Notes under the pieces: model-generated
Told to the model about the DNA's origin: nothing
Database searches by the model: none
Seen by the model: the letters and a program-made list of their open reading frames with translations, nothing else
Program-made: the position numbers and the translations under genes
Virus record (IMG/VR): IMGVR_UViG_2734482547_000015
Strand: one strand, 5' to 3'
From: a virus
Lineage: Duplodnaviria; Heunggongvirae; Uroviricota; Caudoviricetes
DNA length: 39,242 bases
Shown: positions 1-26,967 of the stretch, piece by piece
Layout: the number at the start of each line of letters is the position of its first letter
Position numbering within the stretch: the stretch's first letter is position 1

Positions 1-345
<345 letters not shown>

Positions 346-387: not shown

Positions 388-1125
388 TCATTCACTCTCT
401 TTCAAACCAGTTTTAACTGTTTGGGGTTTTGGGTAAGGCTGGACTTTGAATAGCTTTATGTTGAGGCGTTTTCTGGCCCTCTTGTTCAGAAACCGGATGT
501 AACGAAACTGTCGGAACTTATGAACACTGGCTCTGTCGATATTAGCCCTCAGATGTTCACCTCGTTGTCCGCCTCGTTTAATGGCATTCCTGCAAATCTC
601 GTGATACCACTCGCCATCAAGTTCATAGAATGTTGATTCATGGCTGCCTACATAATCAAAATTGCTTGCCTGATACACGACACCAAGACAGCCACAACGC
701 TCATCTGCAAACGACTGAACCCACTGTACCTGCGGATAAAGCTGTCTGATAAGTTTGAGTGCGTAACTGATGGCCCTTGATTCGGAGTTTCTCGGCATAC
801 AGTCATGCAGCCATAACCGGTTAAGCTCCATATATTCGCGGTTCTGCGTACCGGTTACGACGCGCGCTCCACTGTTTGGATTAAGGGCATAACCCCATTG
901 CATTACGCCAACCAGCTCTCGTTCTGAAAATATACCCAGATGAAGGTAGGAGTTATTTACGAAACGGTGGCTGTAATGTTTATTGACGATGACCAGTCGG
1001 GCCAGCCAGCAACTTATTGTCTCAACCCGTAACTCACGGGAGCCATAACCGACGATATTGTCGTTATAGAGAATAAGTTCAGGCGTGCTGATGATACGGG
1101 ATGTAACTTGTTTTCTGTTCCCCAC
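388..1125 (-). CDS. mom: Mom-like DNA modification protein (245 aa), apparent GTG start preceded by AGGAA
   Basis: Size and position (last gene before prophage right end, overlapping upstream com by 47 nt) match Mu mom; first codon at 1125 reads GTG with Shine-Dalgarno AGGAA about 9 nt upstream. Confidence 0.7.
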
Positions 1126-1279
1126 GACAGGATTTCCTTGTGTATGTGGGGTGCTCTGTGGCGCTCGGAGATGTGATTTGATTGAGGGTTTTACAGCGCG
1201 GACATTTTACTTCCAGATAACTGAAACTGGCCCGTGCCAGTAACTTGTTGCAGTGTCGGCACCGTATGTTTCGATACAT
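1079..1279 (-). CDS. com: Com-like zinc-finger translational activator of mom (66 aa)
   Basis: [10 protein letters not shown]...[11 protein letters not shown] resembles Mu Com (C4 zinc finger); AGGAGG upstream of ATG; 3' end overlaps mom start as in Mu. Confidence 0.8.
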
Positions 1280-1400
1280 GGCCGCATAACCTCCTGCTTT
1301 GTTGATGATATCTTTCTCGCCTAATCGATCGACAAAAACGATCGATTCGATGTGTTTAATTGATACAACAAATAGATTGAAAAGTCATCAACAATGATTC
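1280..1400 (-). promoter_or_regulatory. Putative mom-operon promoter/regulatory region with two closely spaced GATC (Dam) sites
   Basis: AATCGATCGACAAAAACGATCGATTCGAT at ~1323-1350 contains GATC at ~1327 and ~1340 embedded in short palindromes; the Mu mom promoter is Dam-methylation dependent (established knowledge). Confidence 0.45.
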
Positions 1401-1538
1401 AGGGAGGTGATTATTTACTAAAAGAAAACGAAGACTTAGGGTGTGAAAACGATCATAAAATGATCATTTTATTGACTTTTTATCCAGTGAAGGTAGGATC
1501 GCGCGCATATGTAGTATGTTTCAAATCAACAGGATACT

Positions 1539-1578
1539 ACATAAAAGGGAAACCCAGCATAGCTGGAACTATGCTGGG
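1539..1578 (-). terminator. Intrinsic terminator (10-bp perfect stem CCCAGCATAG/CTATGCTGGG, 6-nt loop, U-rich tail on minus strand)
   Basis: Hairpin at ~1553-1578; minus-strand downstream sequence TTTCCCTTTTATG; would terminate transcripts coming from the cargo genes before the mom promoter. Confidence 0.55.
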
Positions 1579-1685
1579 TCAATCTGTAAAAACTTGCATC
1601 AATGCTTTACTTCGAGCTCGTGGCGTATCCTATGATATTCCCCGGTCTCCTGTAAAGCAGAGATATATCTGTTCAGGCAGGAAAA

Positions 1686-1892
1686 ATGGATAAACTAACC
1701 ACAGACCCAAAGTTACAGGCTGCGCGAATTGCAGCTGATATTACAATTGCAGCAATGACATCCACCAGGGGTAACTTTACCTCTTTTCATACAGCAGGTG
1801 ATTCATCCGCTATGCAGTTATGGAACGCGTGCTTTTCTGATGTAATTCGTGCAATCAGCGAGTCAGTTGACCTTCGCGAACCGCAAAAATAG
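1686..1892 (+). CDS. Hypothetical small protein (68 aa) in AT-rich region; convergent with and overlapping 3' end of 1855..2055
   Basis: ATG preceded by CAGGCAGGAAAA (AGGA Shine-Dalgarno); no recognisable motif. Confidence 0.3.
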   Translation: MDKLTTDPKLQAARIAADITIAAMTSTRGNFTSFHTAGDSSAMQLWNACFSDVIRAISESVDLREPQK

Positions 1893-2055
1893 CGCATCTT
1901 GGGGTACACAGGATCTGCATAGCTATCCACATTGCGGTGGCGAAGTTTCGATCCTGTAATGTATCTTCATCAAGTCCTGAACGTAGCGCATTGATAATTT
2001 CCGCGCTTAATCTTTCTAGGCCTTTGGTATCAGGTTGCTTTTTATTCTTGTCCAT
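1855..2055 (-). CDS. Hypothetical small protein (66 aa, start at internal ATG of track ORF)
   Basis: ATG at 2055 preceded by AGAGGA ~9 nt upstream; MDKNKKQPDTKGLERLSAEIINAL...; no recognisable family. Confidence 0.5.
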   Translation of the reverse strand: MDKNKKQPDTKGLERLSAEIINALRSGLDEDTLQDRNFATAMWIAMQILCTPRCAIFAVREGQLTR

Positions 2056-2130
2056 GATTATTGTCCTCTGATTGGTATATAAAGCGCCCATGAAAATAAA
2101 ACCGACAGGAGAAACTGCCGGTTTGTATTG

Positions 2131-2385
2131 TTACATCATGGTGCTGTCAGTTCCGGGCTGAGCCGGGTCTGGTTGCTCTGGCTGCGCGTCGGTTTTCGGC
2201 TCATTATCAGCATCACTGGCCGCAACTGCTGGCCCAATAAGTTTTGCCAGCACTTCATCAACGTAAGTGTCGATTTGTGCCTCAAAATCCTTGCGGACCT
2301 GCGCTTTCAGCAACTTATTTACTTCACCGGAATACAGTGCCTGTTTTACCAGGTCTTCAGTGACGGTGCCTTTAATTTCTGGCAT
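2131..2385 (-). CDS. Hypothetical small protein (84 aa) with Pro/Glu/Asp/Gln-rich acidic C-terminal tail
   Basis: Near-perfect Shine-Dalgarno AAGGAGGA 6 nt upstream of ATG; C-terminus ...SDADNEPKTDAQPEQPDPAQPGTDSTMM. Confidence 0.65.
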   Translation of the reverse strand: MPEIKGTVTEDLVKQALYSGEVNKLLKAQVRKDFEAQIDTYVDEVLAKLIGPAVAASDADNEPKTDAQPEQPDPAQPGTDSTMM

Positions 2386-2420
2386 GTATATCCTCCTTAT
2401 GCGGGAATAAAGCCCTGCAA

Positions 2421-2603
2421 TCAGGGCTGGGTCGGGTCTTTTGGGAGCGGAGTTACCTGCGCTGTTTTACTGAGTTTTTCAGCTGCTGCGTCCTCAATTT
2501 TGCGGCGAACATAATTTCTGATGGCCTTATAACCACCACTCACCAGATATAACGCACATACTGCCGTGCAGAAATACAATAAAATAAGCTGTAAAAATGT
2601 CAT
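2421..2603 (-). CDS. Hypothetical small membrane protein (61 aa, single N-terminal TM helix)
   Basis: GGGAGGGA Shine-Dalgarno directly upstream of ATG at 2603; hydrophobic segment FLQLILLYFCTAVCALYLV followed by charged tail. Confidence 0.6.
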   Translation of the reverse strand: MTFLQLILLYFCTAVCALYLVSGGYKAIRNYVRRKIEDAAAEKLSKTAQVTPLPKDPTQP

Positions 2604-2699
2604 TATCCCTCCCAATTATTGACATGGTGTTGACACCGGTAATATCTGTTAGGTAAAAAGGTGCACTGCATTTTTTGCTTTGGATATAACGATCTTTTT

Positions 2700-2742
2700 G
2701 CCGCCGGTTTCTTGTTTTCCCTTACCGGCGGCATTTTTTTAT
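2700..2742 (+). terminator. Intrinsic terminator-like hairpin on plus strand (GCCGCCGGT ... ACCGGCGGC followed by ATTTTTTTAT)
   Basis: 9-bp GC-rich stem with ~15-nt loop followed by T-run on plus strand; on minus strand the hairpin is followed by A-rich sequence, so it is not a canonical terminator for the esterase gene. Confidence 0.45.
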
Positions 2743-2747
2743 CCTGC

Positions 2748-4802
2748 TTACGCGTTATTCACTTCCACCACGATACTGTCAATCAGTACCGGGTAAGTCG
2801 CATTTTTAGTGATATCGGTCACGCGCAACTTGTCTGCCGTAAACGTGCCGACCGGAGACTGCGACAGCATGAATGGTGTCCCGTCCTTACCATCAATGAC
2901 CGGCGTCACCTCAATACTGTTGTTACCGGCAAAACGGAAGCCCAGCGTATGCCATTCGTTATTAAATGCGCCGAATGACCCCAGCTTCGTGTTCTGCGCC
3001 GTGTTTCCTTTGTGATACATCACGTTAAGGTCTGTGGCATCGCTCTGTACGTAGAACGATGCCAGCAGGTTATGACCGGCATTTCCTTCCAGAGTAACCC
3101 CTTGCGGCAGGGCAGAAACCGGCCAGTACAGCGCCAGTGCGTACTGATTAGCCGTAAGCGCGCCATCGAGTTTAAAACGACAACTGACAAGACCACCTTT
3201 ACCCAGCAGGTCCGCACCATTACCAGCATCATGCTCAAGGTACCAGGGGGCTCTTCCTGTTTCCTTGGTCAGTTTCATTGCCTTACCCCCGCTGGCTCCG
3301 GCATCATCCACGATTTGAGCCTTGCCACCTCCGGCAGCCCAACCCTGTGGTGTCAACCGTCCTTCAGACTCAGATGCCCGGTAAGCAAATAGCGTACTCA
3401 TCGTCGTGGTGTCTGCGGGTGGCGTGGACGGTTTTGATGGTGTATCAGGTGACGGCTTCTCATCCGGTGGTGTCACGGTCTGCCCGCGCATCAGTTCAGC
3501 CGTGCGCCCTGCATGGAGCATAATAGCTGAGGCCAGACGGTCTGAAATGACGCCCCTGCGTGCCCATGAGCTGAAATGGCTGTCACGCTGTGTCGAAACA
3601 AAACTGCCCTGGGTTCGGGATGCTGCACCGTAATACCCGACAGCCACAATATCCGGGTCTTCCGCCGGAGCATTCGTTGGCGTGCTCTGTCCATTCTCAT
3701 CCGTCAGGAACGGTACAAAGAAAATTTTCTGTGCTTCCTTGCCTTTGTAGCCACCGTATACTGCCTCATATTTATCGGTGCCAGCGTTTTTCCAGTAATA
3801 CGTGGTATCACCGCAAATCCACGGCACCGTGGTGGCATTTCCACTCACGCACTGCGCAGCAAGCGGAGCCAGGTCAGTTCTGAACTGCTGAACCATGGCC
3901 GTGAATAAACTATTATGCTGCTGGCTTCCTGAGGCAAGGTCTGCCTCTCCCTGCATCCAGACCACAGCCAGAAGTTTGTTTTTCGGGTTTTTCGCCAGCG
4001 CGACTTTGGTGCGGCTTACCAGGTCCTGATACAGAGGTTTACCGGCCCCCCAGCGTGAAGAATCAGCGGAAGCACCGCTGGCCTCACTGAATGAGCCGTC
4101 GGCTCCAGTGGTGAATGCTGACCCGCCACGACAACAGGGCACCAGAAGTATCCCGGCATTCTGTGGGATATAGGGAAGCAGTTTTTTGGCAATATGCAAC
4201 CCCTGACCGACAGTCCCGTACTGGCCTTTTGCCAGATCAGCTTTCGGGTGGTTTATCCCGCTCATATCCTGAACATCATGCAGGCAGTGGTCTGCCGGAA
4301 TGATGTCGTTGTATGTACACGACGTACCGTTGGGCGTTACCGTACTGCGGCGTGCCAGTTGCTTAATGCGTGGGTCCGGGCGGTCAAACGAATCCGGTAA
4401 CGGCAGCCCCTCGCCGTAGGCCATGCCATTTGACTGACCCGCGAGAATGACAACAAAGTAATATTCCGGCTCTGAACTGCTGCCATTCGTGCTACCGGAA
4501 GGCCCGGCGTTATCCGGTGCATTCCAGTCGGAGGGCGTGAGCGTTCCGGCCACGTCAGATGTGATTGGAATGATGCCAGTCACGCCTGAACTGGTGATTT
4601 CTGCACTGGGATTACCGGATACCGGCATTACCCATAATGGCTCTTTCGTGCTGAAGCGGATCACGCAGTCTGCGAAAGTGATCCCCCCTTTATTACCCGA
4701 AGGGCGGAAAGGGCTTTCAATAAATGCCACCGTGCCACCGGCAACCTTGACTGAAAACTCTCCGGGCATGGCGGAGAGCATTTTCCACTTGGAGTCTGAC
4801 AT
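2748..4802 (-). CDS. SASA-family (sialate O-acetylesterase-like, SGNH-type) carbohydrate esterase domain protein, 684 aa, with N-terminal domain and C-terminal beta-sandwich-like region
   Basis: Central motifs YFVVILAGQSNGMAYGEG and VVWMQGEADL typical of the SASA esterase family; resembles prophage NanS-p-type esterases; sits at the position that holds only com-mom in Mu. Confidence 0.8.
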   Translation of the reverse strand: MSDSKWKMLSAMPGEFSVKVAGGTVAFIESPFRPSGNKGGITFADCVIRFSTKEPLWVMPVSGNPSAEITSSGVTGIIPITSDVAGTLTPSDWNAPDNAGPSGSTNGSSSEPEYYFVVILAGQSNGMAYGEGLPLPDSFDRPDPRIKQLARRSTVTPNGTSCTYNDIIPADHCLHDVQDMSGINHPKADLAKGQYGTVGQGLHIAKKLLPYIPQNAGILLVPCCRGGSAFTTGADGSFSEASGASADSSRWGAGKPLYQDLVSRTKVALAKNPKNKLLAVVWMQGEADLASGSQQHNSLFTAMVQQFRTDLAPLAAQCVSGNATTVPWICGDTTYYWKNAGTDKYEAVYGGYKGKEAQKIFFVPFLTDENGQSTPTNAPAEDPDIVAVGYYGAASRTQGSFVSTQRDSHFSSWARRGVISDRLASAIMLHAGRTAELMRGQTVTPPDEKPSPDTPSKPSTPPADTTTMSTLFAYRASESEGRLTPQGWAAGGGKAQIVDDAGASGGKAMKLTKETGRAPWYLEHDAGNGADLLGKGGLVSCRFKLDGALTANQYALALYWPVSALPQGVTLEGNAGHNLLASFYVQSDATDLNVMYHKGNTAQNTKLGSFGAFNNEWHTLGFRFAGNNSIEVTPVIDGKDGTPFMLSQSPVGTFTADKLRVTDITKNATYPVLIDSIVVEVNNA

Positions 4803-22890: not shown

Positions 22891-24472
22891 CCAGCATCCC
22901 CTTCATTTCCGCAGCAAACATGGCATCACTGAGCAGCGTCATCAGGCGGGAATCATCCATTTCACGATAAAGGGCAGGCAGGTCTGCCAGCGCATCCGCC
23001 AGCCCCCGCGTTCTGATGGCATCAATGACCGGCTCCAGTACCGGGTCGATGGCCTCCTGTAAGCGGCGGGCAGGCACCGCGTCCCCCATATCATCCAGTT
23101 CATCACGCGGCGTGCTTTTCGCTTCCGGCAGTCTGGCTGACAGCGCCGTCTGCTCTGTTTTTTCCTGTTTTTCCGGTGGTGTTTCCCTGTCGGTCTGAGC
23201 CGGTTCATTGCCACTCTGACGGACACGGAATATGGCTTCACCGGGCGTGGGCTGCGGAATACCGGTCTGCTCACGTATCCAGGGATCAGAAATATCCATC
23301 CCCGTACTGAGCTGCATCACCGCACTGGTGATTTTGGTGATATCACCTGGTTCTTTTGTCTGGAAGCAGATACGTGGCAGACGGCGGATATCAATAGTGT
23401 GCGTGGTGTTCAGGGCGTACAGCGGATACACCAGATCGCGGTTCAGGGTTGCAGCCAGCTGGCGTAAATCAGAATCCCTGATTTCCCGGCGCACCTCGTT
23501 ATGCACCTCACCCAGCGAGCGCGCGCCTTTGTCTCCGGCTTCTGTGGTCAGCGTGCCGCCGAGTATTGCTTTGGAGATGGAACGCTCACCCCACGAAATC
23601 ATGGTTTCAAACGGATCGGCCTGACCGTTCGCTGCCGCCTGAAACTCCAGCGACATCCCGGCCGGGATGATCCCGCCTGTACGTCGCCCGATATCCATCA
23701 CCGCCCGCATCAGGGCACTTTTCTGCTCCGGTGTTGCCCCGGACGGGTATTTCCCGACCTTCATTGGCAGGCCGTACACCTCCAGAAATTCCGCCAGATC
23801 GCGCACGGAATAGTTTTTGAAAATGAACGGCCAGATAAGCGTTCTGACAAGCCCCGTCGCACCACCGTAGCCGGTGCGTGAACGCGACTGATGCACTATC
23901 CAGCCAAAGGGCTGAAACGCCACCCCGGCATGGCTGCCGTCACGCAGCCGCAGTTCGCTCAAATCATCCGGGTTAAGGCAGAAATGCCCGCTGTCACGCC
24001 ATCGGATGGCGCGGATGATGTGCATCTTACCGAGCATCCCGTGCTCAATCTCCATGCAGGAATAGCCCTTCAGGATGGCATCGGTGGCATCAAATAACAT
24101 GGCATCAAACCAGTCGGCGGAATGCAGATATTCGTCGAGCATTTCCGCGTCCTTTTTCTCATTCGCGCTGGCGTTCGGTGGCGGCTCAATGCTCCATGGC
24201 ACCCCCTGAATGGCAAGACGTCGCTTGCCCAGCTCCGCAAAAAGGTGGGTGTCCTTTTCTTCAATGTCAGCCGCCAGATCGGACTGGGCAATCAGATCGC
24301 CACGTTCAGCCCCGCGAAGGCACTGCGCCGCCCGGTTCGGGGTGATACCCGAGGCGGGATGCTCAACATAACGGCTGGCAATCTGCGGAATATCCAGCGC
24401 GGTACTTTGCATCTCCGGGTCAAAGGAGAAAGGTTTTCCGTCAAGATCAATTATGCGTCCCACTACCAGCAC
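22874..24472 (-). CDS. Portal protein (Mu gp29-like), 532 aa; track start is GTG, first ATG at 24412
   Basis: Conserved position after terminase large subunit; start codon uncertain. Confidence 0.8.
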   Translation of the reverse strand: MLVVGRIIDLDGKPFSFDPEMQSTALDIPQIASRYVEHPASGITPNRAAQCLRGAERGDLIAQSDLAADIEEKDTHLFAELGKRRLAIQGVPWSIEPPPNASANEKKDAEMLDEYLHSADWFDAMLFDATDAILKGYSCMEIEHGMLGKMHIIRAIRWRDSGHFCLNPDDLSELRLRDGSHAGVAFQPFGWIVHQSRSRTGYGGATGLVRTLIWPFIFKNYSVRDLAEFLEVYGLPMKVGKYPSGATPEQKSALMRAVMDIGRRTGGIIPAGMSLEFQAAANGQADPFETMISWGERSISKAILGGTLTTEAGDKGARSLGEVHNEVRREIRDSDLRQLAATLNRDLVYPLYALNTTHTIDIRRLPRICFQTKEPGDITKITSAVMQLSTGMDISDPWIREQTGIPQPTPGEAIFRVRQSGNEPAQTDRETPPEKQEKTEQTALSARLPEAKSTPRDELDDMGDAVPARRLQEAIDPVLEPVIDAIRTRGLADALADLPALYREMDDSRLMTLLSDAMFAAEMKGMLDDTGD

Positions 24473-26127
24473 CCCCGATCAAATTCATGATATGCCTCAT
24501 CGTCATCACGATAACCGCCCTCCATTGCCCGCGACCGCTCCGGCAGCGCCTGACAGGCTGATTCATCCAGGATGAAACCCTCCATGTATGACGCCCGGTT
24601 TGCCATACAGAGTGCCACGGCAAAATCACCATGGCGGCGGGCGTTCGCAGCCGTTGCGTTCTGGTCCTTCGTGCGCCCCTTGTCGATTTGCGGGATACCA
24701 TTCACCACCTTCACATGGCGCAAATCATCAAGCGTGGTCTGATGGCGGGCGACGAGGATATTCTGATCTTCAAACTCGGCTTTCAGTTTTGGCATCCACT
24801 CGCCGTACCACTTCGGCGACAACATCACGCAGTCGATGATGTCCGGGCCAAAGGCCAGCAGTGCGGCCTCTGCCAGATAGCCGCCGTTACCGGTGGCGTC
24901 GAACGCCGCACCGACCAGCGCCGGAACGCGGGTCAGGATGTACATCATCACCTGTTCCTGCTGGGCATACGGCAGGTTGCGCAGCTCCACGCGAAACACC
25001 TCGCGCTTTGCCAGGAGTTCGGTGATTTCCAGCAGCACAAAGCAGGACAGGTCACCGGTGCGGGCAAAGTCTTCCCCGAAGCTGAAGCGGGAACGGGGAT
25101 TTAATTTCTCTGTAAGCGGTTTTAAATGTTCTTCACACCAGGTTAAAACTTCCGATTCACGCAGCCATGCGGCACGGCTGATGAAGTCGTCCGGGGCTTC
25201 AAACGTCAGAATCGGGATGTCACGAATCATCGCCATTTCAATAAGCGCGTGAGGAATATAGGCACCGCCGGATTTTTTCGGGATACAGCCGTATTCCTCG
25301 TCGGCATCCTCACGGGTCGGGGCGTTTTTGTAGAGATCATCACGCCATTTCTGCTCGCTTTCCGGTGACCATTCCTGATCGGTGACGTAACAGATACGAC
25401 GGTACAGCCCGTCCGCAATGGCATCATCCAGGGTTATGCGGTGGACGCTGTAATCCTTGCGCCCCTCGCGGGCTTCCTGAATGTACTGATTAAACAGATT
25501 ATCGACGCCGTTATGCGTGGAAATAATGCGCACGCGTGCGCCCCACATGGTAAGCGCCATTGCCGCCTTGAGAAGCTCATCCAGTGACTCGTGGAACGCG
25601 GCTTCATCAATCACCACATCCCCCTGAAGACCGCGCAGGTTTGACGGACGGGAAGACAATGCCTGAATTTTGAATCCACTGTTCGGAAAGCGGATCATGT
25701 AGGTCAGAATTTCTTCTTTTTTATCCCGATCCCAGAATGTCTGCTCATACACATCAGCATCTGCCAGCTGGTTAAAGGCACGGGAGAACAGCGCGCAGGC
25801 AGAAATATATTCCAGCGCCATCTCCTGTTTTGACCCCACATAAAACACATTACGGCCACCACGACGCTTAGGCTTTGCGGCGGTAATGACGTTACGCCCG
25901 GCTTCCGCCCAGGTAAGCCCGGTGCGTCGGGATTTCTCCGCGATGCAGACCTGACTTTCATCTGCAAACCAGCGGGCCTGATAATCCAGAAACACCGGCA
26001 TATCACCGGGCAAATCAAGGCTGTCCGGCACATCCACGCCCAGCAGGGCTTTTTCACCGGACAGATCAATTTTGCGGGGAGGTGTCATTTGTATCAGTGA
26101 AGGAGACTTTTCTTTGGCTTTGTTCAT
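24463..26127 (-). CDS. Terminase large subunit (554 aa)
   Basis: Size and position before portal; start overlaps upstream stop (TGATG). Confidence 0.85.
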   Translation of the reverse strand: MNKAKEKSPSLIQMTPPRKIDLSGEKALLGVDVPDSLDLPGDMPVFLDYQARWFADESQVCIAEKSRRTGLTWAEAGRNVITAAKPKRRGGRNVFYVGSKQEMALEYISACALFSRAFNQLADADVYEQTFWDRDKKEEILTYMIRFPNSGFKIQALSSRPSNLRGLQGDVVIDEAAFHESLDELLKAAMALTMWGARVRIISTHNGVDNLFNQYIQEAREGRKDYSVHRITLDDAIADGLYRRICYVTDQEWSPESEQKWRDDLYKNAPTREDADEEYGCIPKKSGGAYIPHALIEMAMIRDIPILTFEAPDDFISRAAWLRESEVLTWCEEHLKPLTEKLNPRSRFSFGEDFARTGDLSCFVLLEITELLAKREVFRVELRNLPYAQQEQVMMYILTRVPALVGAAFDATGNGGYLAEAALLAFGPDIIDCVMLSPKWYGEWMPKLKAEFEDQNILVARHQTTLDDLRHVKVVNGIPQIDKGRTKDQNATAANARRHGDFAVALCMANRASYMEGFILDESACQALPERSRAMEGGYRDDDEAYHEFDRGCW

Positions 26128-26375
26128 CAGGCTTTACCTGTCAGAATGCTTTTGATTCGGAACTCAAGCTCTTCAGTCATCACGTCCACGCCACTCAACT
26201 CATCAGTGACAGCCCCTGCCAGCAGCGAATGCAGTTGTTCCAGGGATATTTCCCCGGCAATGCTGAGTTCAGTCAACTCACGACACGCTTTTATGGTTTC
26301 AGGAGGTAACTGTGTTGCAAGACTGAATGCCTTCTGATGAGCACTGCTCATCAGTGAGCGGTTATCTGTTACCAC
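26127..26375 (-). CDS. Small protein (82 aa) whose C-terminus is paralogous to the C-terminus of the upstream gp27-like protein
   Basis: AVTDELSGVDVMTEELEFRIKSILTGKA versus AVTDELRGVDGMSEQIEFRIRQMLLGKA in 26386..26967. Confidence 0.55.
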   Translation of the reverse strand: MVTDNRSLMSSAHQKAFSLATQLPPETIKACRELTELSIAGEISLEQLHSLLAGAVTDELSGVDVMTEELEFRIKSILTGKA

Positions 26376-26385
26376 GATTCACCTC

Positions 26386-26967
26386 CTACGCCTTACCAAG
26401 CAGCATCTGCCTGATACGGAATTCTATCTGCTCGCTCATGCCATCCACGCCGCGCAACTCGTCGGTGACGGCGTTCGCCATCTCTTCAGCAAATGCGGCC
26501 CGGATTTCTTTTTCACGCTTAATGCTGCGCTCGGCGGCACTTTCCGCACGCTGTGCCGACAGGAGGATGTCCTTAATAAGGCGCATATCCACATCGCTGT
26601 CGCTGTTCAGGGATTCGGTGGCGGCACGCAGACGGCGGTACATCAGGGCACGGGACATCTCCAGAATCAGTGCCGTGGTTTCACCGGTCGGCTTATCCCC
26701 CAGTTCGGCCATCATGGCTTTTGTCTGCTCGCGTAAATCACGCAGATTACGGGCAATCAGCTCATTACGGGAGGCTTCCCGGCTGATGGCCGCCGGTGAA
26801 AGCTGCTGCTCTTCCGGCAGGCCTGCCTCACGGATCAGACGGTTGATTTCCTCGCGGATCTGGACCTGCGTCAGGCGTTTTTCACGCAGCATTTCCAGCA
26901 GCGGCTTACGGATGCTGTCGGGGAGCAAATCCACCTTGCGTACACGGCCACGCGTCGGCTTATCCAT
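26386..26967 (-). CDS. Mu gp27-like protein (putative terminase small subunit), 193 aa
   Basis: Position directly upstream of terminase large subunit; charged coiled-coil-like sequence. Confidence 0.65.
   Translation of the reverse strand: MDKPTRGRVRKVDLLPDSIRKPLLEMLREKRLTQVQIREEINRLIREAGLPEEQQLSPAAISREASRNELIARNLRDLREQTKAMMAELGDKPTGETTALILEMSRALMYRRLRAATESLNSDSDVDMRLIKDILLSAQRAESAAERSIKREKEIRAAFAEEMANAVTDELRGVDGMSEQIEFRIRQMLLGKA

What the first reader, a model, noticed from the sequence alone, without database searches (positions are those of the whole stretch)
1280..1900. AT-rich segment upstream of com with convergent small ORFs and a terminator facing the cargo genes
The region is clearly more AT-rich than the prophage body. 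It contains a minus-strand intrinsic terminator (~1539-1578) that would insulate the mom promoter from upstream readthrough, and a plus-strand 68-aa ORF with its own Shine-Dalgarno that converges on and overlaps the 3' end of the 66-aa minus-strand gene. A convergent overlapping small-gene pair could be an antisense-regulated module.
Basis: seen in the sequence. Interest (0 to 1): 0.45.

Follow-up and report, generated by a model that had tools for sequence, protein, structure and literature searches.

The report
Conserved convergent gene pair beside mom
The AT-rich stretch upstream of com in this Mu-like E. coli prophage holds a conserved non-coding control/insulator block with a structure-conserved hairpin, followed by a swapped-in cassette of two real small genes that face each other and overlap at their ends, a pairing that recurs in distantly related Mu-like prophages but has no known function.

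Summary
GC is 0.41 over 1280-1900 against 0.54 for the window. There is a strong minus-strand hairpin (1551-1580) with a U-containing tail. A 68-aa plus-strand ORF (1686-1892) overlaps by 38 nt the 3' end of a 66-aa minus-strand gene (1855-2055).

The segment has three parts.
1. 1280-1393 is the com/mom control region, with a GATC palindrome.
2. 1394-1665 is a conserved block that some genomes annotate as a (pseudo)gene. Its reading frame breaks in many different ways among 22 variants, so I read it as non-coding. It carries conserved promoter-like hexamers on both strands. Its hairpin exists in five sequence versions that all keep a strong stem, which fits a leftward terminator shielding mom.
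3. 1666-~2095 is an alternative cargo cassette carrying ORF68 and ORF66.

Both ORFs show coding-type substitution patterns. Both have distant homologues (phrog_25148, phrog_21398, function unknown). In 10 further distinct loci from Enterobacterales Mu-like prophages the two families sit convergently with a 26, 29 or 38 nt 3' overlap, in two different genomic slots. ORF68 relatives were never found alone; ORF66 relatives sometimes were.

Antisense coupling is plausible but untested. Protein function is unknown.

The parts
388..1125 (-). mom (DNA modification gene)
   Evidence: Pfam PF25680 Mom, E = 2e-77; phrog_1384.
1079..1279 (-). com (zinc-ribbon translational activator of mom); overlaps the start of mom
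   Evidence: Pfam PF10122 Zn_ribbon_Com, E = 2e-12. PGAP names it 'Com family'.
1280..1393 (.). com/mom control region. It contains the 25-bp palindrome AATCGATCG-N7-CGATCGATT (1323-1347), with GATC at 1327 and 1340.
   Evidence: Nearly invariant in all E. coli variants (A1); the palindrome core is invariant even in Salmonella-type relatives (A9). It aligns with the GATC cluster upstream of Pmom in phage Mu (A2). The GATC density here is the highest in the window, 5 sites in 200 bp.
1394..1665 (.). Conserved leader/insulator block, probably non-coding. It underlies a 99-codon ORF (1394-1693, +) that PGAP calls a truncated pseudogene.
   Evidence: Matches phrog_26524 and PGAP calls it a pseudogene. 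Against coding: the frame ends after 14, 15, 17, 56, 82, 99, 106, 135, 137 or 154 codons in 22 variants. The block is 67-83% identical in Salmonella-type loci that lack the ORF.
1472..1499 (+). Rightward sigma-70-like promoter: TTGACT, 16-nt spacer, TAGGAT. GATC at 1497 overlaps the -10 hexamer.
   Evidence: Found by the scan, and by the same scan in Sakai. The hexamers are conserved and the spacer varies in M18, L065 and L066. The count of promoter-like sites is not above chance (3 found, 3.7 expected), so support comes from conservation only.
1508..1543 (.). Inverted repeat TATGTAGTAT-N16-ATACTACATA (stem-loop 1 of the leader)
   Evidence: It is absent in M18.
1541..1580 (-). Structure-conserved hairpin (stem 1580->1551) plus tail UUUCCCUUUUAU; terminator-like for leftward transcription
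   Evidence: Five sequence versions have z-scores of -3.0 to -4.8, and each is followed by the conserved CC(C)TTTATGTAGTA.
1596..1605 (.). Nearly invariant block GCATCAATGC. It lies inside the repeated hairpin unit and in stem-loop 3 (1598-1664).
1627..1656 (-). Leftward sigma-70-like promoter: TTTACA, 18-nt spacer, TAGGAT. It points at the hairpin.
   Evidence: Found by the scans. The -35 hexamer is 6/6 invariant and the -10 is 5/6 invariant across six diverged leaders, while the spacer varies (A9).
1666..2095 (.). Alternative cargo cassette carrying ORF68 and ORF66
   Evidence: The left breakpoint is at ~1666 and the right breakpoint lies just before the DUF826 terminator (A1). O157-type prophages carry a 57-64-aa zinc-ribbon ORF here instead.
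1686..1892 (+). ORF68, a small acidic helical protein (phrog_25148-like family)
   Evidence: Intact in all 9 distinct spacer variants that carry it. In the part that does not overlap ORF66, 13 of 20 variable sites are at third codon positions (binomial p = 0.004). Distant homologues are 27-42% identical.
1855..1892 (.). 38-nt antisense overlap of the two 3' coding ends
   Evidence: Within the overlap, changes are mostly synonymous in ORF66 (4 of 5) and non-synonymous in ORF68 (4 of 5). Homologous overlaps of 26 or 29 nt occur in remote pairs; all lengths are 2 mod 3.
1855..2055 (-). ORF66, a small helical protein with motif AMW(I/L)AMQxLC(G/T)P (phrog_21398-like family)
   Evidence: pN/pS = 0.019/0.275 against the 92%-identical allele. 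One relative has an in-frame 30-bp deletion. Remote homologues are 36-42% identical.
2099..2124 (.). Terminator hairpin after DUF826 (minus strand). It is T-rich on both sides, so it could also stop rightward transcripts.
   Evidence: conserved in all variants (A1).
2131..2385 (-). DUF826 gene, the last gene of the lambdoid-type cargo run
   Evidence: Pfam PF05696, E = 6e-16.

Best explanation
The segment is the junction of the variable cargo slot at the right end of an Sp18-type Mu-like prophage of E. coli. It has three parts.

(1) 1280-1393 is the Dam-site-rich com/mom control region.

(2) 1394-1665 is a conserved block that I read as non-coding. It holds a rightward promoter (1472-1499) that would drive whatever gene sits in the slot. 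It holds a hairpin (1551-1580) kept for its structure, which most likely terminates leftward transcripts from ORF66 or from read-through of the gin/esterase/DUF1378/DUF826 run before they reach the mom promoter. It also holds a second, leftward promoter-like element (1656-1627).

(3) 1666-~2095 is a mobile two-gene cassette. ORF68 (+) and ORF66 (-) are both real protein-coding genes for small soluble helical proteins. They belong to two uncharacterised families that travel together in Mu-like prophages as a convergent pair whose 3' coding ends overlap in a fixed phase.

Inferred working. ORF68 is made from the rightward promoter, as a lysogen-expressed 'moron'. ORF66 is made in the same direction as the phage late and cargo genes. 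Each transcript must run antisense through the other's 3' end. In this window, given the terminators at 1551-1580 and 2099-2124, each transcript could run through the whole partner gene. Expression would then be mutually antagonistic through transcriptional interference or RNA duplex cleavage. The two proteins probably act on each other or in one pathway.

Shown: the anatomy, coding status, mosaic boundaries, hairpin structure conservation and recurrence of the pair. Inferred: promoter use, termination, antisense coupling and any protein function.
For: Prophage identity and gene order.

Mosaic structure: about 171 E. coli genomes match only 1280-1664 at 95-99% identity, and 15 match the whole of 1280-1900. 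Breakpoints were read from A1.

Non-coding reading of 1394-1665:
- The frame is broken in many different ways.
- Of about 8 nucleotide differences from O157, 5 change the amino acid.
- Salmonella-type leaders keep the DNA at 67-83% identity without the ORF, although their ORF68 homologues are only ~38% identical.
- The conserved positions coincide with the promoter hexamers, and the spacers vary.

Hairpin:
- z = -4.7.
- Versions A-E have different stems but all are strong, including A-U->G-C and C-G->U-A double changes and a pair deleted on both sides.
- When the unit is duplicated, only the com-proximal copy keeps a strong stem.

ORF66: pN/pS ~0.07.

ORF68: third-position bias, p = 0.004.

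Recurrence of the pair: besides the window, the convergent overlapping arrangement occurs in 10 distinct loci (L003, L024, L038, L051, L059, L060, L061/62, L063, L065, L066/67). It occupies two slots, com-proximal and between the DUF1804 gene and the large terminase.

Asymmetry: ORF68-family genes were never found without an ORF66-family partner, whereas ORF66-family genes occur alone in L039, L040, L050, L052 and L053.
Against: - No expression, 5'-end or 3'-end data were found for this locus.
- The count of promoter-like matches is no higher than in shuffled sequence.
- The U-tract after the hairpin is interrupted (UUUCCCUUUU) and weaker in other versions (CCCUUUAUG), so termination may be inefficient.
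- One relative (M18) has no strong hairpin. Two relatives (L008, L035) have deleted the hairpin and most of ORF68 yet keep ORF66.
- No ORF66 promoter was recognised between 2056 and 2098.
- The structure models are of low confidence (pLDDT 63-64). Nothing informative came from the fold, PDB, Pfam, NCBIfam or PADLOC searches.
- A 3' overlap can arise from genome compaction alone.
Confidence: 0.55

Rival explanations
1. The hairpin is the terminator of a small cis-antisense RNA of about 75-80 nt on the minus strand. It would start near 1620 from the TTTACA-18-TAGGAT element and end near 1543. It would be complementary to the 5' leader of the plus-strand cargo mRNA and would control ORF68, or the zinc-ribbon gene in O157.
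For: - The leftward promoter hexamers are the most conserved positions of the block, and the 18-nt spacer varies.
- The layout is a conserved 5' part (GCATTGATGC), then a hairpin whose sequence varies with compensated changes, then a U-containing tail. This is the usual conservation pattern of sRNA genes.
- The plus-strand leader it would pair with is unusually structured (z = -4.5).
- Convergent sRNA genes at moron sites are documented in EHEC lambdoid prophages (PMC4104026).
Against: - Hfq crosslinking in O157 Sakai lists only one orphan site in Sp18 (EcOnc37), and it maps elsewhere; nothing is listed near this locus.
- No Rfam family matches.
- The U-tail is poor for an Hfq-type sRNA.
- The count of promoter-like sites is at chance level.
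- The duplicated units lack the promoter.
Confidence: 0.2
2. 1394-1693 is simply a decaying protein-coding gene, a relative of O157 ECs_4996 (phrog_26524) that was truncated when the ORF68/ORF66 cassette recombined in. On this view the hairpin and the promoter-like motifs inside it have no function of their own.
For: - Match to phrog_26524 with E = 1e-43 over residues 1-92.
- PGAP calls it a pseudogene lacking its C-terminus.
- An intact 154-aa ORF exists in O157.
- There is weak peptide-level resemblance in the short ORF of the Salmonella-type leader.
Against: - The frame is interrupted at many different places in otherwise 90-97% identical DNA.
- The O157 154-aa ORF is a one-base fusion of this frame with the separately conserved zinc-ribbon ORF.
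- There is no excess of synonymous change.
- The hairpin keeps its structure while the encoded peptide changes completely (type C).
- The conserved positions are the promoter hexamers, not codons.
Confidence: 0.12
3. ORF68 and ORF66 form a toxin-antitoxin-like or exclusion module. One protein would neutralise the other. For example, ORF68 made in the lysogen could bind ORF66-type proteins of the resident or a superinfecting Mu-like phage. The overlap would serve mainly to keep the two genes linked.
For: - Dependence is one-sided: ORF68-family genes never occur alone, whereas ORF66-family genes do.
- The pair moves as a unit between two slots.
- Both are small, soluble, mostly acidic helical proteins.
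- The pair sits in a cargo slot whose content varies between relatives.
Against: - The genes are convergent rather than in one operon, unlike type II systems.
- There is no membrane segment, unlike type I toxins.
- There are no PADLOC, Pfam or NCBIfam matches.
- No interaction or toxicity data exist.
- Natural deletions remove ORF68 and leave ORF66, and ORF66 relatives occur alone. If either protein is toxic, it would therefore have to be ORF68.
Confidence: 0.13

Closest known systems
gin-com-mom right end of phage Mu, with Dam/OxyR- and C-controlled Pmom
   Same: com overlaps mom. There is a cluster of GATC sites just upstream, and it aligns with Mu's. The gene direction is the same as gin. 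From established Mu biology (my knowledge): mom expression is harmful if mistimed, so shielding it from upstream transcription makes sense.
   Different: In Mu, gin ends 94 bp before com. Here about 3.5 kb of cargo plus the 1394-1665 block lie between them. The last GATC is ~30 nt closer to the com ATG than in Mu, and Mu's TTAT-N6-ATAA site is not visible (the identity of that motif as the C site is from memory).
Phage 'morons': accessory genes with their own promoter and terminator inserted between conserved phage genes. This includes the convergent sRNA genes at moron sites of EHEC lambdoid prophages (Tree et al. 2014, PMC4104026).
   Same: The segment has low GC and its content varies between close relatives. 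It has its own promoter-like and terminator-like signals and is oriented against the phage late genes.
   Different: The cargo here is a pair of protein genes locked in a phase-conserved 3' overlap, and it recurs as a unit in two different slots of Mu-like prophages. No expression data exist.
Lambda OOP antisense RNA versus the 3' end of cII mRNA, and other convergent-transcription switches (from my knowledge, not tested here)
   Same: Two convergent transcription units have complementary 3' ends, so each transcript can pair with or collide with the other.
   Different: In lambda one partner is a non-coding 77-nt RNA. Here both partners encode conserved proteins, and the overlap is within both coding regions.
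Type I and type II toxin-antitoxin modules
   Same: A small two-gene, mobile, prophage-borne module with one-sided dependence of one family on the other. Antisense overlap is a feature of type I systems.
   Different: There is no hydrophobic toxin, no operon arrangement and no match to known TA or defence families.
PHROG families phrog_25148 and phrog_21398 (function unknown)
   Same: ORF68 relatives match phrog_25148 (E down to 9e-9). ORF66 relatives match phrog_21398 (E = 4e-7). ORF68 itself matches phrog_25148 weakly (E = 0.003).
   Different: ORF66 itself gave no PHROG match. The PHROG entries carry no function and no statement about pairing. No deposited phage genome matched the two distant relatives tried, P0020 (ORF68-like) and P0010 (ORF66-like), by tblastn.

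Membership tests
Intrinsic (Rho-independent) terminator | Stable G+C-containing stem-loop in the transcript | tested here: met
   13-bp stem, -25.3 kcal/mol, z = -4.7. Five sequence versions all form strong stems.
Intrinsic (Rho-independent) terminator | Uninterrupted U-rich tract directly after the stem | tested here: inconclusive
   The tail is UUUCCCUUUUAU in the window. It passes the scan rule of 5 T in 8 but is interrupted by CCC. Other versions have CCCUUUAUG or AUCCUUAUAU.
Intrinsic (Rho-independent) terminator | Lies downstream of a transcription unit in the same orientation and stops transcription | not testable with these tools
   The position fits: it is 275 nt after the ORF66 stop and ~270 nt before com. 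No 3'-end mapping data were found.
Mu-type mom operon control region | com and mom genes overlapping, at the prophage right end | tested here: met
   PF10122 and PF25680 hits; the genes overlap over 1079-1125.
Mu-type mom operon control region | Cluster of Dam (GATC) sites upstream of the promoter | tested here: met
   GATC at 1327, 1340, 1451, 1462 and 1497, the densest 200 bp in the window. The sites align with Mu's cluster.
Mu-type mom operon control region | OxyR binding to the unmethylated sites and activation by the phage C protein | not testable with these tools
   No Mu-like TTAT-N6-ATAA motif was seen between the GATC palindrome and com. Binding cannot be assessed from sequence alone.
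Protein-coding gene (ORF68) | Open frame kept, with a codon-position bias of substitutions, among relatives | tested here: met
   Intact in all 9 distinct spacer variants that carry it. 13 of 20 variable sites are at third positions outside the overlap, p = 0.004. Homologues are 27-42% identical. pN/pS against one allele is only 0.38.
Protein-coding gene (ORF66) | Open frame kept, with purifying selection | tested here: met
   12 synonymous and 3 non-synonymous changes, pN/pS ~0.07. In-frame deletion allele. Remote homologues share the AMWxAMQxxC core.
Protein-coding gene (ORF99, 1394-1693) | Open frame kept among relatives | tested here: not met
   The frame ends after 14 to 154 codons in different variants of near-identical DNA. 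It is absent in Salmonella-type leaders.
Type I toxin-antitoxin | Small hydrophobic membrane toxin | tested here: not met
   The highest 19-residue Kyte-Doolittle mean is 0.3-1.5 in both families; the proteins are mostly acidic and soluble.
Type II toxin-antitoxin | Two co-directional genes in one operon, with recognisable toxin or antitoxin domains | tested here: not met
   The genes are convergent. No Pfam, NCBIfam or PADLOC domain was found.
Hfq-type small RNA gene (minus strand, ~1620->1543) | Own promoter, conserved 5' part and terminator hairpin | tested here: inconclusive
   The pattern is present and conserved. There is no Rfam match and no Hfq site is reported here in Sakai.
Phage moron | Variable presence between close relatives, deviant base composition, own transcription signals | tested here: met
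   At least four alternative contents occupy the slot. GC is 0.44 for the cassette against 0.54 for the window. Promoter-like and terminator-like signals flank it; their activity was not tested.

The most novel reading that the evidence does not exclude
ORF68 and ORF66 represent an undescribed kind of two-gene phage module. Its parts would be held together and cross-regulated by a phase-conserved antisense overlap of their 3' coding ends. ORF68 would be expressed in the lysogen and ORF66 with the late or cargo genes, so that transcription of one silences the other, and the two proteins would antagonise each other. This would make a lysogeny/lytic toggle or an exclusion device, carried between slots of Mu-like prophages. 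In this prophage it sits behind a conserved regulatory leader that may itself encode a cis-antisense RNA.
Probability: 0.25. Interest if true: 0.65.

Novelty: new variant of a known kind. Interest (0 to 1): 0.45.

Why it matters
Three things would follow if the reading holds.

- Annotation. It shows that a region annotated as a hypothetical gene or pseudogene in hundreds of E. coli genomes, including ECs_4996 of O157 Sakai, is more likely a regulatory block. That block would comprise a promoter, a terminator or insulator ahead of mom, and possibly a small antisense RNA.
- A new module. It defines a recurrent pair of uncharacterised small phage proteins whose convergent, overlapping arrangement is kept across deep divergence. 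Such arrangements are rare, and this one offers a testable case of antisense-coupled gene expression in a temperate phage.
- Prophage accessory content. It documents a cargo hotspot in Mu-like prophages of pathogenic E. coli that also carries a lambdoid-type sialate-esterase cassette.

The practical stakes are modest unless the pair turns out to affect phage exclusion, induction or host fitness.

Tried and rejected
**Function searches that gave nothing**
- Pfam, NCBIfam and PADLOC scans of ORF68, ORF66 and ORF99 returned nothing meaningful.
- tblastn of ORF68, ORF66 and two distant relatives against 50,697 deposited phage genomes gave no match.
- The word-indexed search of 5.8 billion proteins found only near-identical relatives. 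Distant ones appeared only with the exhaustive HMMER search and with the family profile.
- AlphaFold2 models of both proteins were helical but of low confidence (pLDDT 63-64).
- Foldseek against viral structures gave no hit with E < 4.
- The PDB sequence search gave none for the ORF66 family and only chance-level Skp1 hits (E >= 0.013) for the ORF68 family.
- Rfam found no family in 1000-2800 except a sub-threshold Esr41 hit outside the finding.

**Collection scans and alignment problems**
- The genome-contig scan with the ORF66-family motif confirmed no locus.
- A MAFFT alignment of the hairpin versions (A7) was not structurally consistent. I therefore read compensatory changes directly and folded each version separately, rather than using the pair-counting tool.

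**Literature**
- The only Sp18 sRNA reported (EcOnc37) maps to the esterase/DUF1378 spacer, not here.
- No paper mentions ECs4996.
- Supplements with transcription start or termination maps were not held.

**Readings I rejected**
- ORF99 as a live gene.
- ORF68 as a chance ORF.
- The hairpin as a REP-type repeat: there is only one copy of its conserved flank in the window and no Rfam match.
Full report
**Where we are.** The window is the right end and body of a Mu-like prophage of E. coli, of the type called Sp18 in O157 Sakai.
- mom (388-1125) and com (1079-1279) lie on the minus strand (Pfam Mom E = 2e-77, Zn_ribbon_Com E = 2e-12).
- Further along the minus strand lie DUF826 (2131-2385), DUF1378 (2421-2615), a 684-aa SASA/DUF6645 esterase (2748-4802) and the gin-type invertase.
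- Seven E. coli genomes carry 1200-2750 at >=99% identity. In all, 460 genomes match some part of it.
- In phage Mu, gin stops 94 bp before com. In this prophage family about 3.5 kb of cargo has been placed between them.

**Check of the observation.**
- GC is 0.409 over 1280-1900 against a window mean of 0.538. Only 1.6% of windows of that size are as low.
- The scan found a minus-strand stem 1580->1551 of 13 pairs, followed by TCCCTTTTAT. As RNA it folds at -25.3 kcal/mol, z = -4.7, and 0 of 200 shuffles do as well.
- ORF68 (1686-1892, +) has AGGA three bases before its ATG.
- ORF66 (1855-2055, -) has GAGGA eight bases before its ATG, and PGAP annotates it in a 99.5%-identical prophage.
- The two ORFs overlap by 38 nt.

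**The segment is a mosaic of three parts.** About 171 E. coli genomes, mostly O157 and other STEC, match only 1280-1664 at 95-99% identity. Only 15 match the whole of 1280-1900. An alignment of seven variants (A1) puts a sharp breakpoint at ~1666 and a second just before the DUF826 terminator (2099-2124). Between these points the content differs:
- O157-type prophages carry a 57-64-aa zinc-ribbon ORF.
- The window type and the STEC299 type carry ORF68 plus ORF66.
- JE86-ST05 and M18 carry other plus-strand genes.

This is therefore a cargo slot with exchangeable content, and ORF68/ORF66 is one cassette.

**Part 1, 1280-1393.** This is nearly invariant among E. coli variants. It contains the perfect palindrome AATCGATCG-N7-CGATCGATT (1323-1347), whose core stays invariant even in Salmonella-type relatives. 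It aligns with the GATC cluster upstream of Pmom in Mu, but the distance to the com ATG is ~30 nt shorter. Counting three more sites at 1451, 1462 and 1497, this is the densest GATC cluster in the 39-kb window. I take it as the com/mom control region. Which proteins bind it cannot be told from sequence.

**Part 2, 1394-1665.** A 99-codon ORF starts at 1394. It matches phrog_26524 (E = 1e-43), and PGAP calls it a pseudogene lacking its C-terminus. In O157 it reads on for 154 codons (ECs_4996).

I collected 22 distinct versions of the com-DUF826 spacer from genomes, viral contigs and metagenomes. The evidence against a coding role is as follows.
- The frame from this ATG ends after 14, 15, 17, 56, 82, 99, 106, 135, 137 or 154 codons, in DNA that is otherwise 90-97% identical.
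- The O157 154-aa frame exists only because one extra base fuses it to the separately conserved zinc-ribbon ORF.
- Five of about eight differences between the window and O157 change the amino acid.
- In Salmonella-type and other relatives (L060, L065, L066) the DNA downstream of ~1448 is still 67-83% identical. Yet there is no long ORF, and the ORF68 homologues that follow are only ~38% identical in protein.

The block is thus conserved as DNA or RNA, not as protein.

The best-conserved positions are two pairs of promoter-like hexamers with variable spacers of fixed length:
- TTGACT-16-TAGGAT pointing right (1472-1499).
- TTTACA-18-TAGGAT pointing left (1656-1627).

The raw count of promoter-like sites is at chance level (3 found, 3.7 expected), so the argument rests on conservation. 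The plus-strand RNA from ~1506 to the ORF68 start is unusually structured, with three stem-loops and z = -4.5.

**The hairpin.** Between nearly invariant flanks (GGATACTACATA... and ...GCATCAATGC) the hairpin is the most variable stretch in sequence, yet it is constant in structure. I found five versions:
- A: ACCCAGCATAG/CTATGCTGGGT
- B: GCCCAGAATAG/CTATCTGGGTC, with one bulge
- C: GGTCCAGATAG/CTATCTGGACC
- D: GACCCAGTAG/CTACTGGGTC
- E: GCCCGGCAG/CTGCCGGGC

Their z-scores are -4.4, -3.0, -4.5, -4.8 and -4.6. Going from A to C, two pairs change on both sides (A-U to G-C, C-G to U-A) and one pair is deleted on both sides. The encoded peptide of the 1394 frame changes completely at the same time.

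Some lineages carry a tandem duplication of the ~77-81-bp unit. In those, only the copy nearer com keeps a strong stem.

Every version is followed on the minus strand by CC(C)TTT(T)ATGTAGTA. This is only a moderate U-tract.

It belongs to the conserved block, not to the cassette. In O157-type prophages it sits antisense in the leader of the zinc-ribbon gene. Efficiency is unknown. M18 lacks a strong stem, and two variants have lost the hairpin by a deletion between GGTGATT repeats at 1406 and 1797.

**Part 3, the cassette.**

*ORF66.* It differs from its 92%-identical allele by 12 synonymous and 3 non-synonymous changes (pN/pS ~0.07). One relative has an in-frame 30-bp deletion.

*ORF68.* It is intact in all nine distinct spacer variants that carry it. 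Outside the overlap, 13 of 20 variable sites fall on third codon positions (p = 0.004).

*The overlap.* Inside the 38-nt overlap, four of the five changes are synonymous for ORF66 and four of five are non-synonymous for ORF68. ORF66 therefore sets the constraint there.

*Protein character.* Both proteins are small, soluble and mostly helical.

**The pair recurs.** An exhaustive HMMER search with ORF66 found three 64-78-aa proteins, 36-42% identical, that share the core NFxxAMW(I/L)AMQxLCGP.

The locus of the first of these (L038) has, on the opposite strand and overlapping its 3' end by 26 nt, an 88-aa gene. That gene's N-terminus (LTTDQRIQVARIAADL) and C-terminus match ORF68 (LTTDPKLQAARIAADI).

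A profile of the ORF68 family then found 17 proteins. Every locus I looked up has an ORF66-family gene convergent to it and overlapping its 3' end.

A scan with HMMs of both families over six-frame ORFs gives the table:
- Pairs occur in the window (38 nt overlap), L003 (38), L024 (38), L038 (26), L051 (29), L059 (26), L060 (26), L061/62 (26), L063 (29), L065 (26) and L066/67 (26).
- All overlap lengths are 2 mod 3, so the relative phase is kept.
- The overlap carries conserved motifs of both proteins..GESD.. in the ORF68 family, antisense to ..SQIH.. in the ORF66 family.
- ORF66-family genes occur alone in L039, L040, L050, L052 and L053. ORF68-family genes never occur alone.

The pair sits in two places. 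One is the com-proximal slot behind the conserved leader (window, L003, L024, L060, L065, L066). The other is between the DUF1804 gene and the large terminase of other Mu-like prophages in Dickeya and Enterobacter (L051, L061) and in two contigs of unnamed origin (L038, L063). The leader is not found at the second place. The pair therefore moves as a unit.

Relatives match phrog_25148 and phrog_21398, both of unknown function. No deposited phage genome matched by tblastn.

**How it most likely works.**

Shown: the anatomy, the coding status, the mosaic boundaries, the structural conservation of the hairpin and the recurrence of the pair.

Inferred:
- The rightward promoter at 1472-1499 drives ORF68, as it would the zinc-ribbon gene in O157. 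Its transcript can run to the T-rich hairpin at 2099-2124, which would make it antisense to all of ORF66.
- ORF66 is read in the direction of the late and cargo genes. No promoter was recognised for it, so it may depend on read-through of the DUF826 terminator.
- The ORF66 transcript would end at 1551-1580. That makes it antisense to all of ORF68 and keeps it out of the mom control region.
- Such convergent units interfere with each other by polymerase collision or duplex cleavage. I know this from lambda OOP/cII and similar cases; it was not tested here.
- The one-sided dependence suggests that the proteins also act on each other.

I put the structural and evolutionary account at about 0.8 and the antisense-coupled mechanism at about 0.35-0.4.

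**Rivals.**
- *A small antisense RNA.* A cis-antisense RNA of ~75-80 nt from the leftward promoter to the hairpin fits the conservation pattern. However, Hfq crosslinking in Sakai reports nothing at this locus; its only Sp18 site, EcOnc37, maps to the esterase/DUF1378 spacer. Rfam has no match. Confidence 0.2.
- *A decaying gene.* A decaying protein gene with incidental motifs: 0.12, for the reasons given under Part 2.
- *A toxin-antitoxin-like or exclusion pair.* 0.13. It lacks the defining layouts and domains but is not excluded as a working analogy.

**Verdict.** Most of what is here is ordinary prophage mosaicism around a known operon. What is not ordinary is the deeply conserved, phase-locked convergent overlap of two uncharacterised small genes, together with a regulatory block that genome annotation treats as a gene. 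Interest 0.45; a new variant of a known kind.

Noticed in passing
window 2629-2747 (+), between DUF1378 and the DUF6645 esterase: There are two TTGACA motifs (from ~2624 and ~2635), followed by a strong plus-strand terminator (GCCGCCGG...CCGGCGGC + T7, ~2701-2742) that abuts the esterase stop codon. Rfam gives a sub-threshold Esr41 hit at 2660-2742 (22 bits, E = 0.23). The Hfq-bound orphan sRNA EcOnc37 of Sakai Sp18 (old coordinates 5,077,340-5,077,410, minus strand; PMC4104026 Table S2) probably corresponds to this spot, assuming the newer Sakai record is ~128 bp longer than the one used in the paper (that older length is recalled, not looked up). Sakai has a matching terminator there.
   Followed up: partly
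window 2131-4802 (-): A run of genes typical of lambdoid/Stx prophages sits inside a Mu-like prophage between gin and com: a SASA/DUF6645 sialate-esterase-like 684-aa protein, DUF1378 and DUF826.
   Followed up: partly
L002 3874-4926; L060 1346-2398; L065 1329-2381; L066 1355-2407: In several relatives com is followed by a 350-aa C5 DNA methyltransferase (PF00145) in place of mom.
   Followed up: no
L005 4113-4577 (O157 strain 7409); L068 4627-5091 (Sakai ECs_4996): The annotated 154-aa hypothetical protein of O157 looks like an annotation artefact. One extra base fuses the non-conserved leader frame to a separately conserved 57-64-aa zinc-ribbon ORF, which has its own AAGGAG and ATG in other variants.
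   Followed up: partly
L003/L006 about 4322-4480 / 3242-3400; L065 2770-2920; L066, L067: The ~77-81-bp hairpin unit (ACTACATA...hairpin...GCATCAATGCTTTACT) is tandemly duplicated in several lineages. The com-distal copy has a degenerate stem.
   Followed up: partly
window 1406-1412 and 1797-1803; L008, L035: Two metagenome/viral variants carry a 384-bp deletion between direct GGTGATT repeats. It removes the rightward promoter, the hairpin and most of ORF68 but leaves ORF66.
   Followed up: yes
window 1280-1350 compared with Mu (L010 2190-2270): The com/mom control region is compressed relative to Mu. The GATC palindrome lies only ~45-68 nt before the com ATG, and Mu's TTAT-N6-ATAA motif is not seen. 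The promoter and activator site must therefore be arranged differently.
   Followed up: partly
window 26127-26375 (-): An 82-aa ORF lies between the 193-aa ORF (26386-26967) and the 554-aa ORF at 24463-26127 that occupies the large-terminase position (not scanned against any family library here). Its C-terminus (AVTDELSGVDVMTEELEFRIKSILTGKA) repeats the C-terminus of the 193-aa protein, which suggests a partial duplication.
   Followed up: no
window 1446-1481: The palindrome GATCATAAAATGATC carries two Dam sites and lies immediately before the TTGACT of the rightward promoter. A third GATC (1497) overlaps the promoter's TAGGAT. Dam methylation might therefore affect the rightward promoter as well as mom.
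   Followed up: no
window 1-300 compared with L001 4507-5061, L003, L005, L006, L007: Near-identical copies of this prophage are inserted in different host genes (elfC-like usher, bcsA, a GH25 gene, a torZ-like gene, hsdR), as expected for Mu-type transposition. This window's own host flank differs from that of the 99.5%-identical NCCP15648 copy.
   Followed up: no
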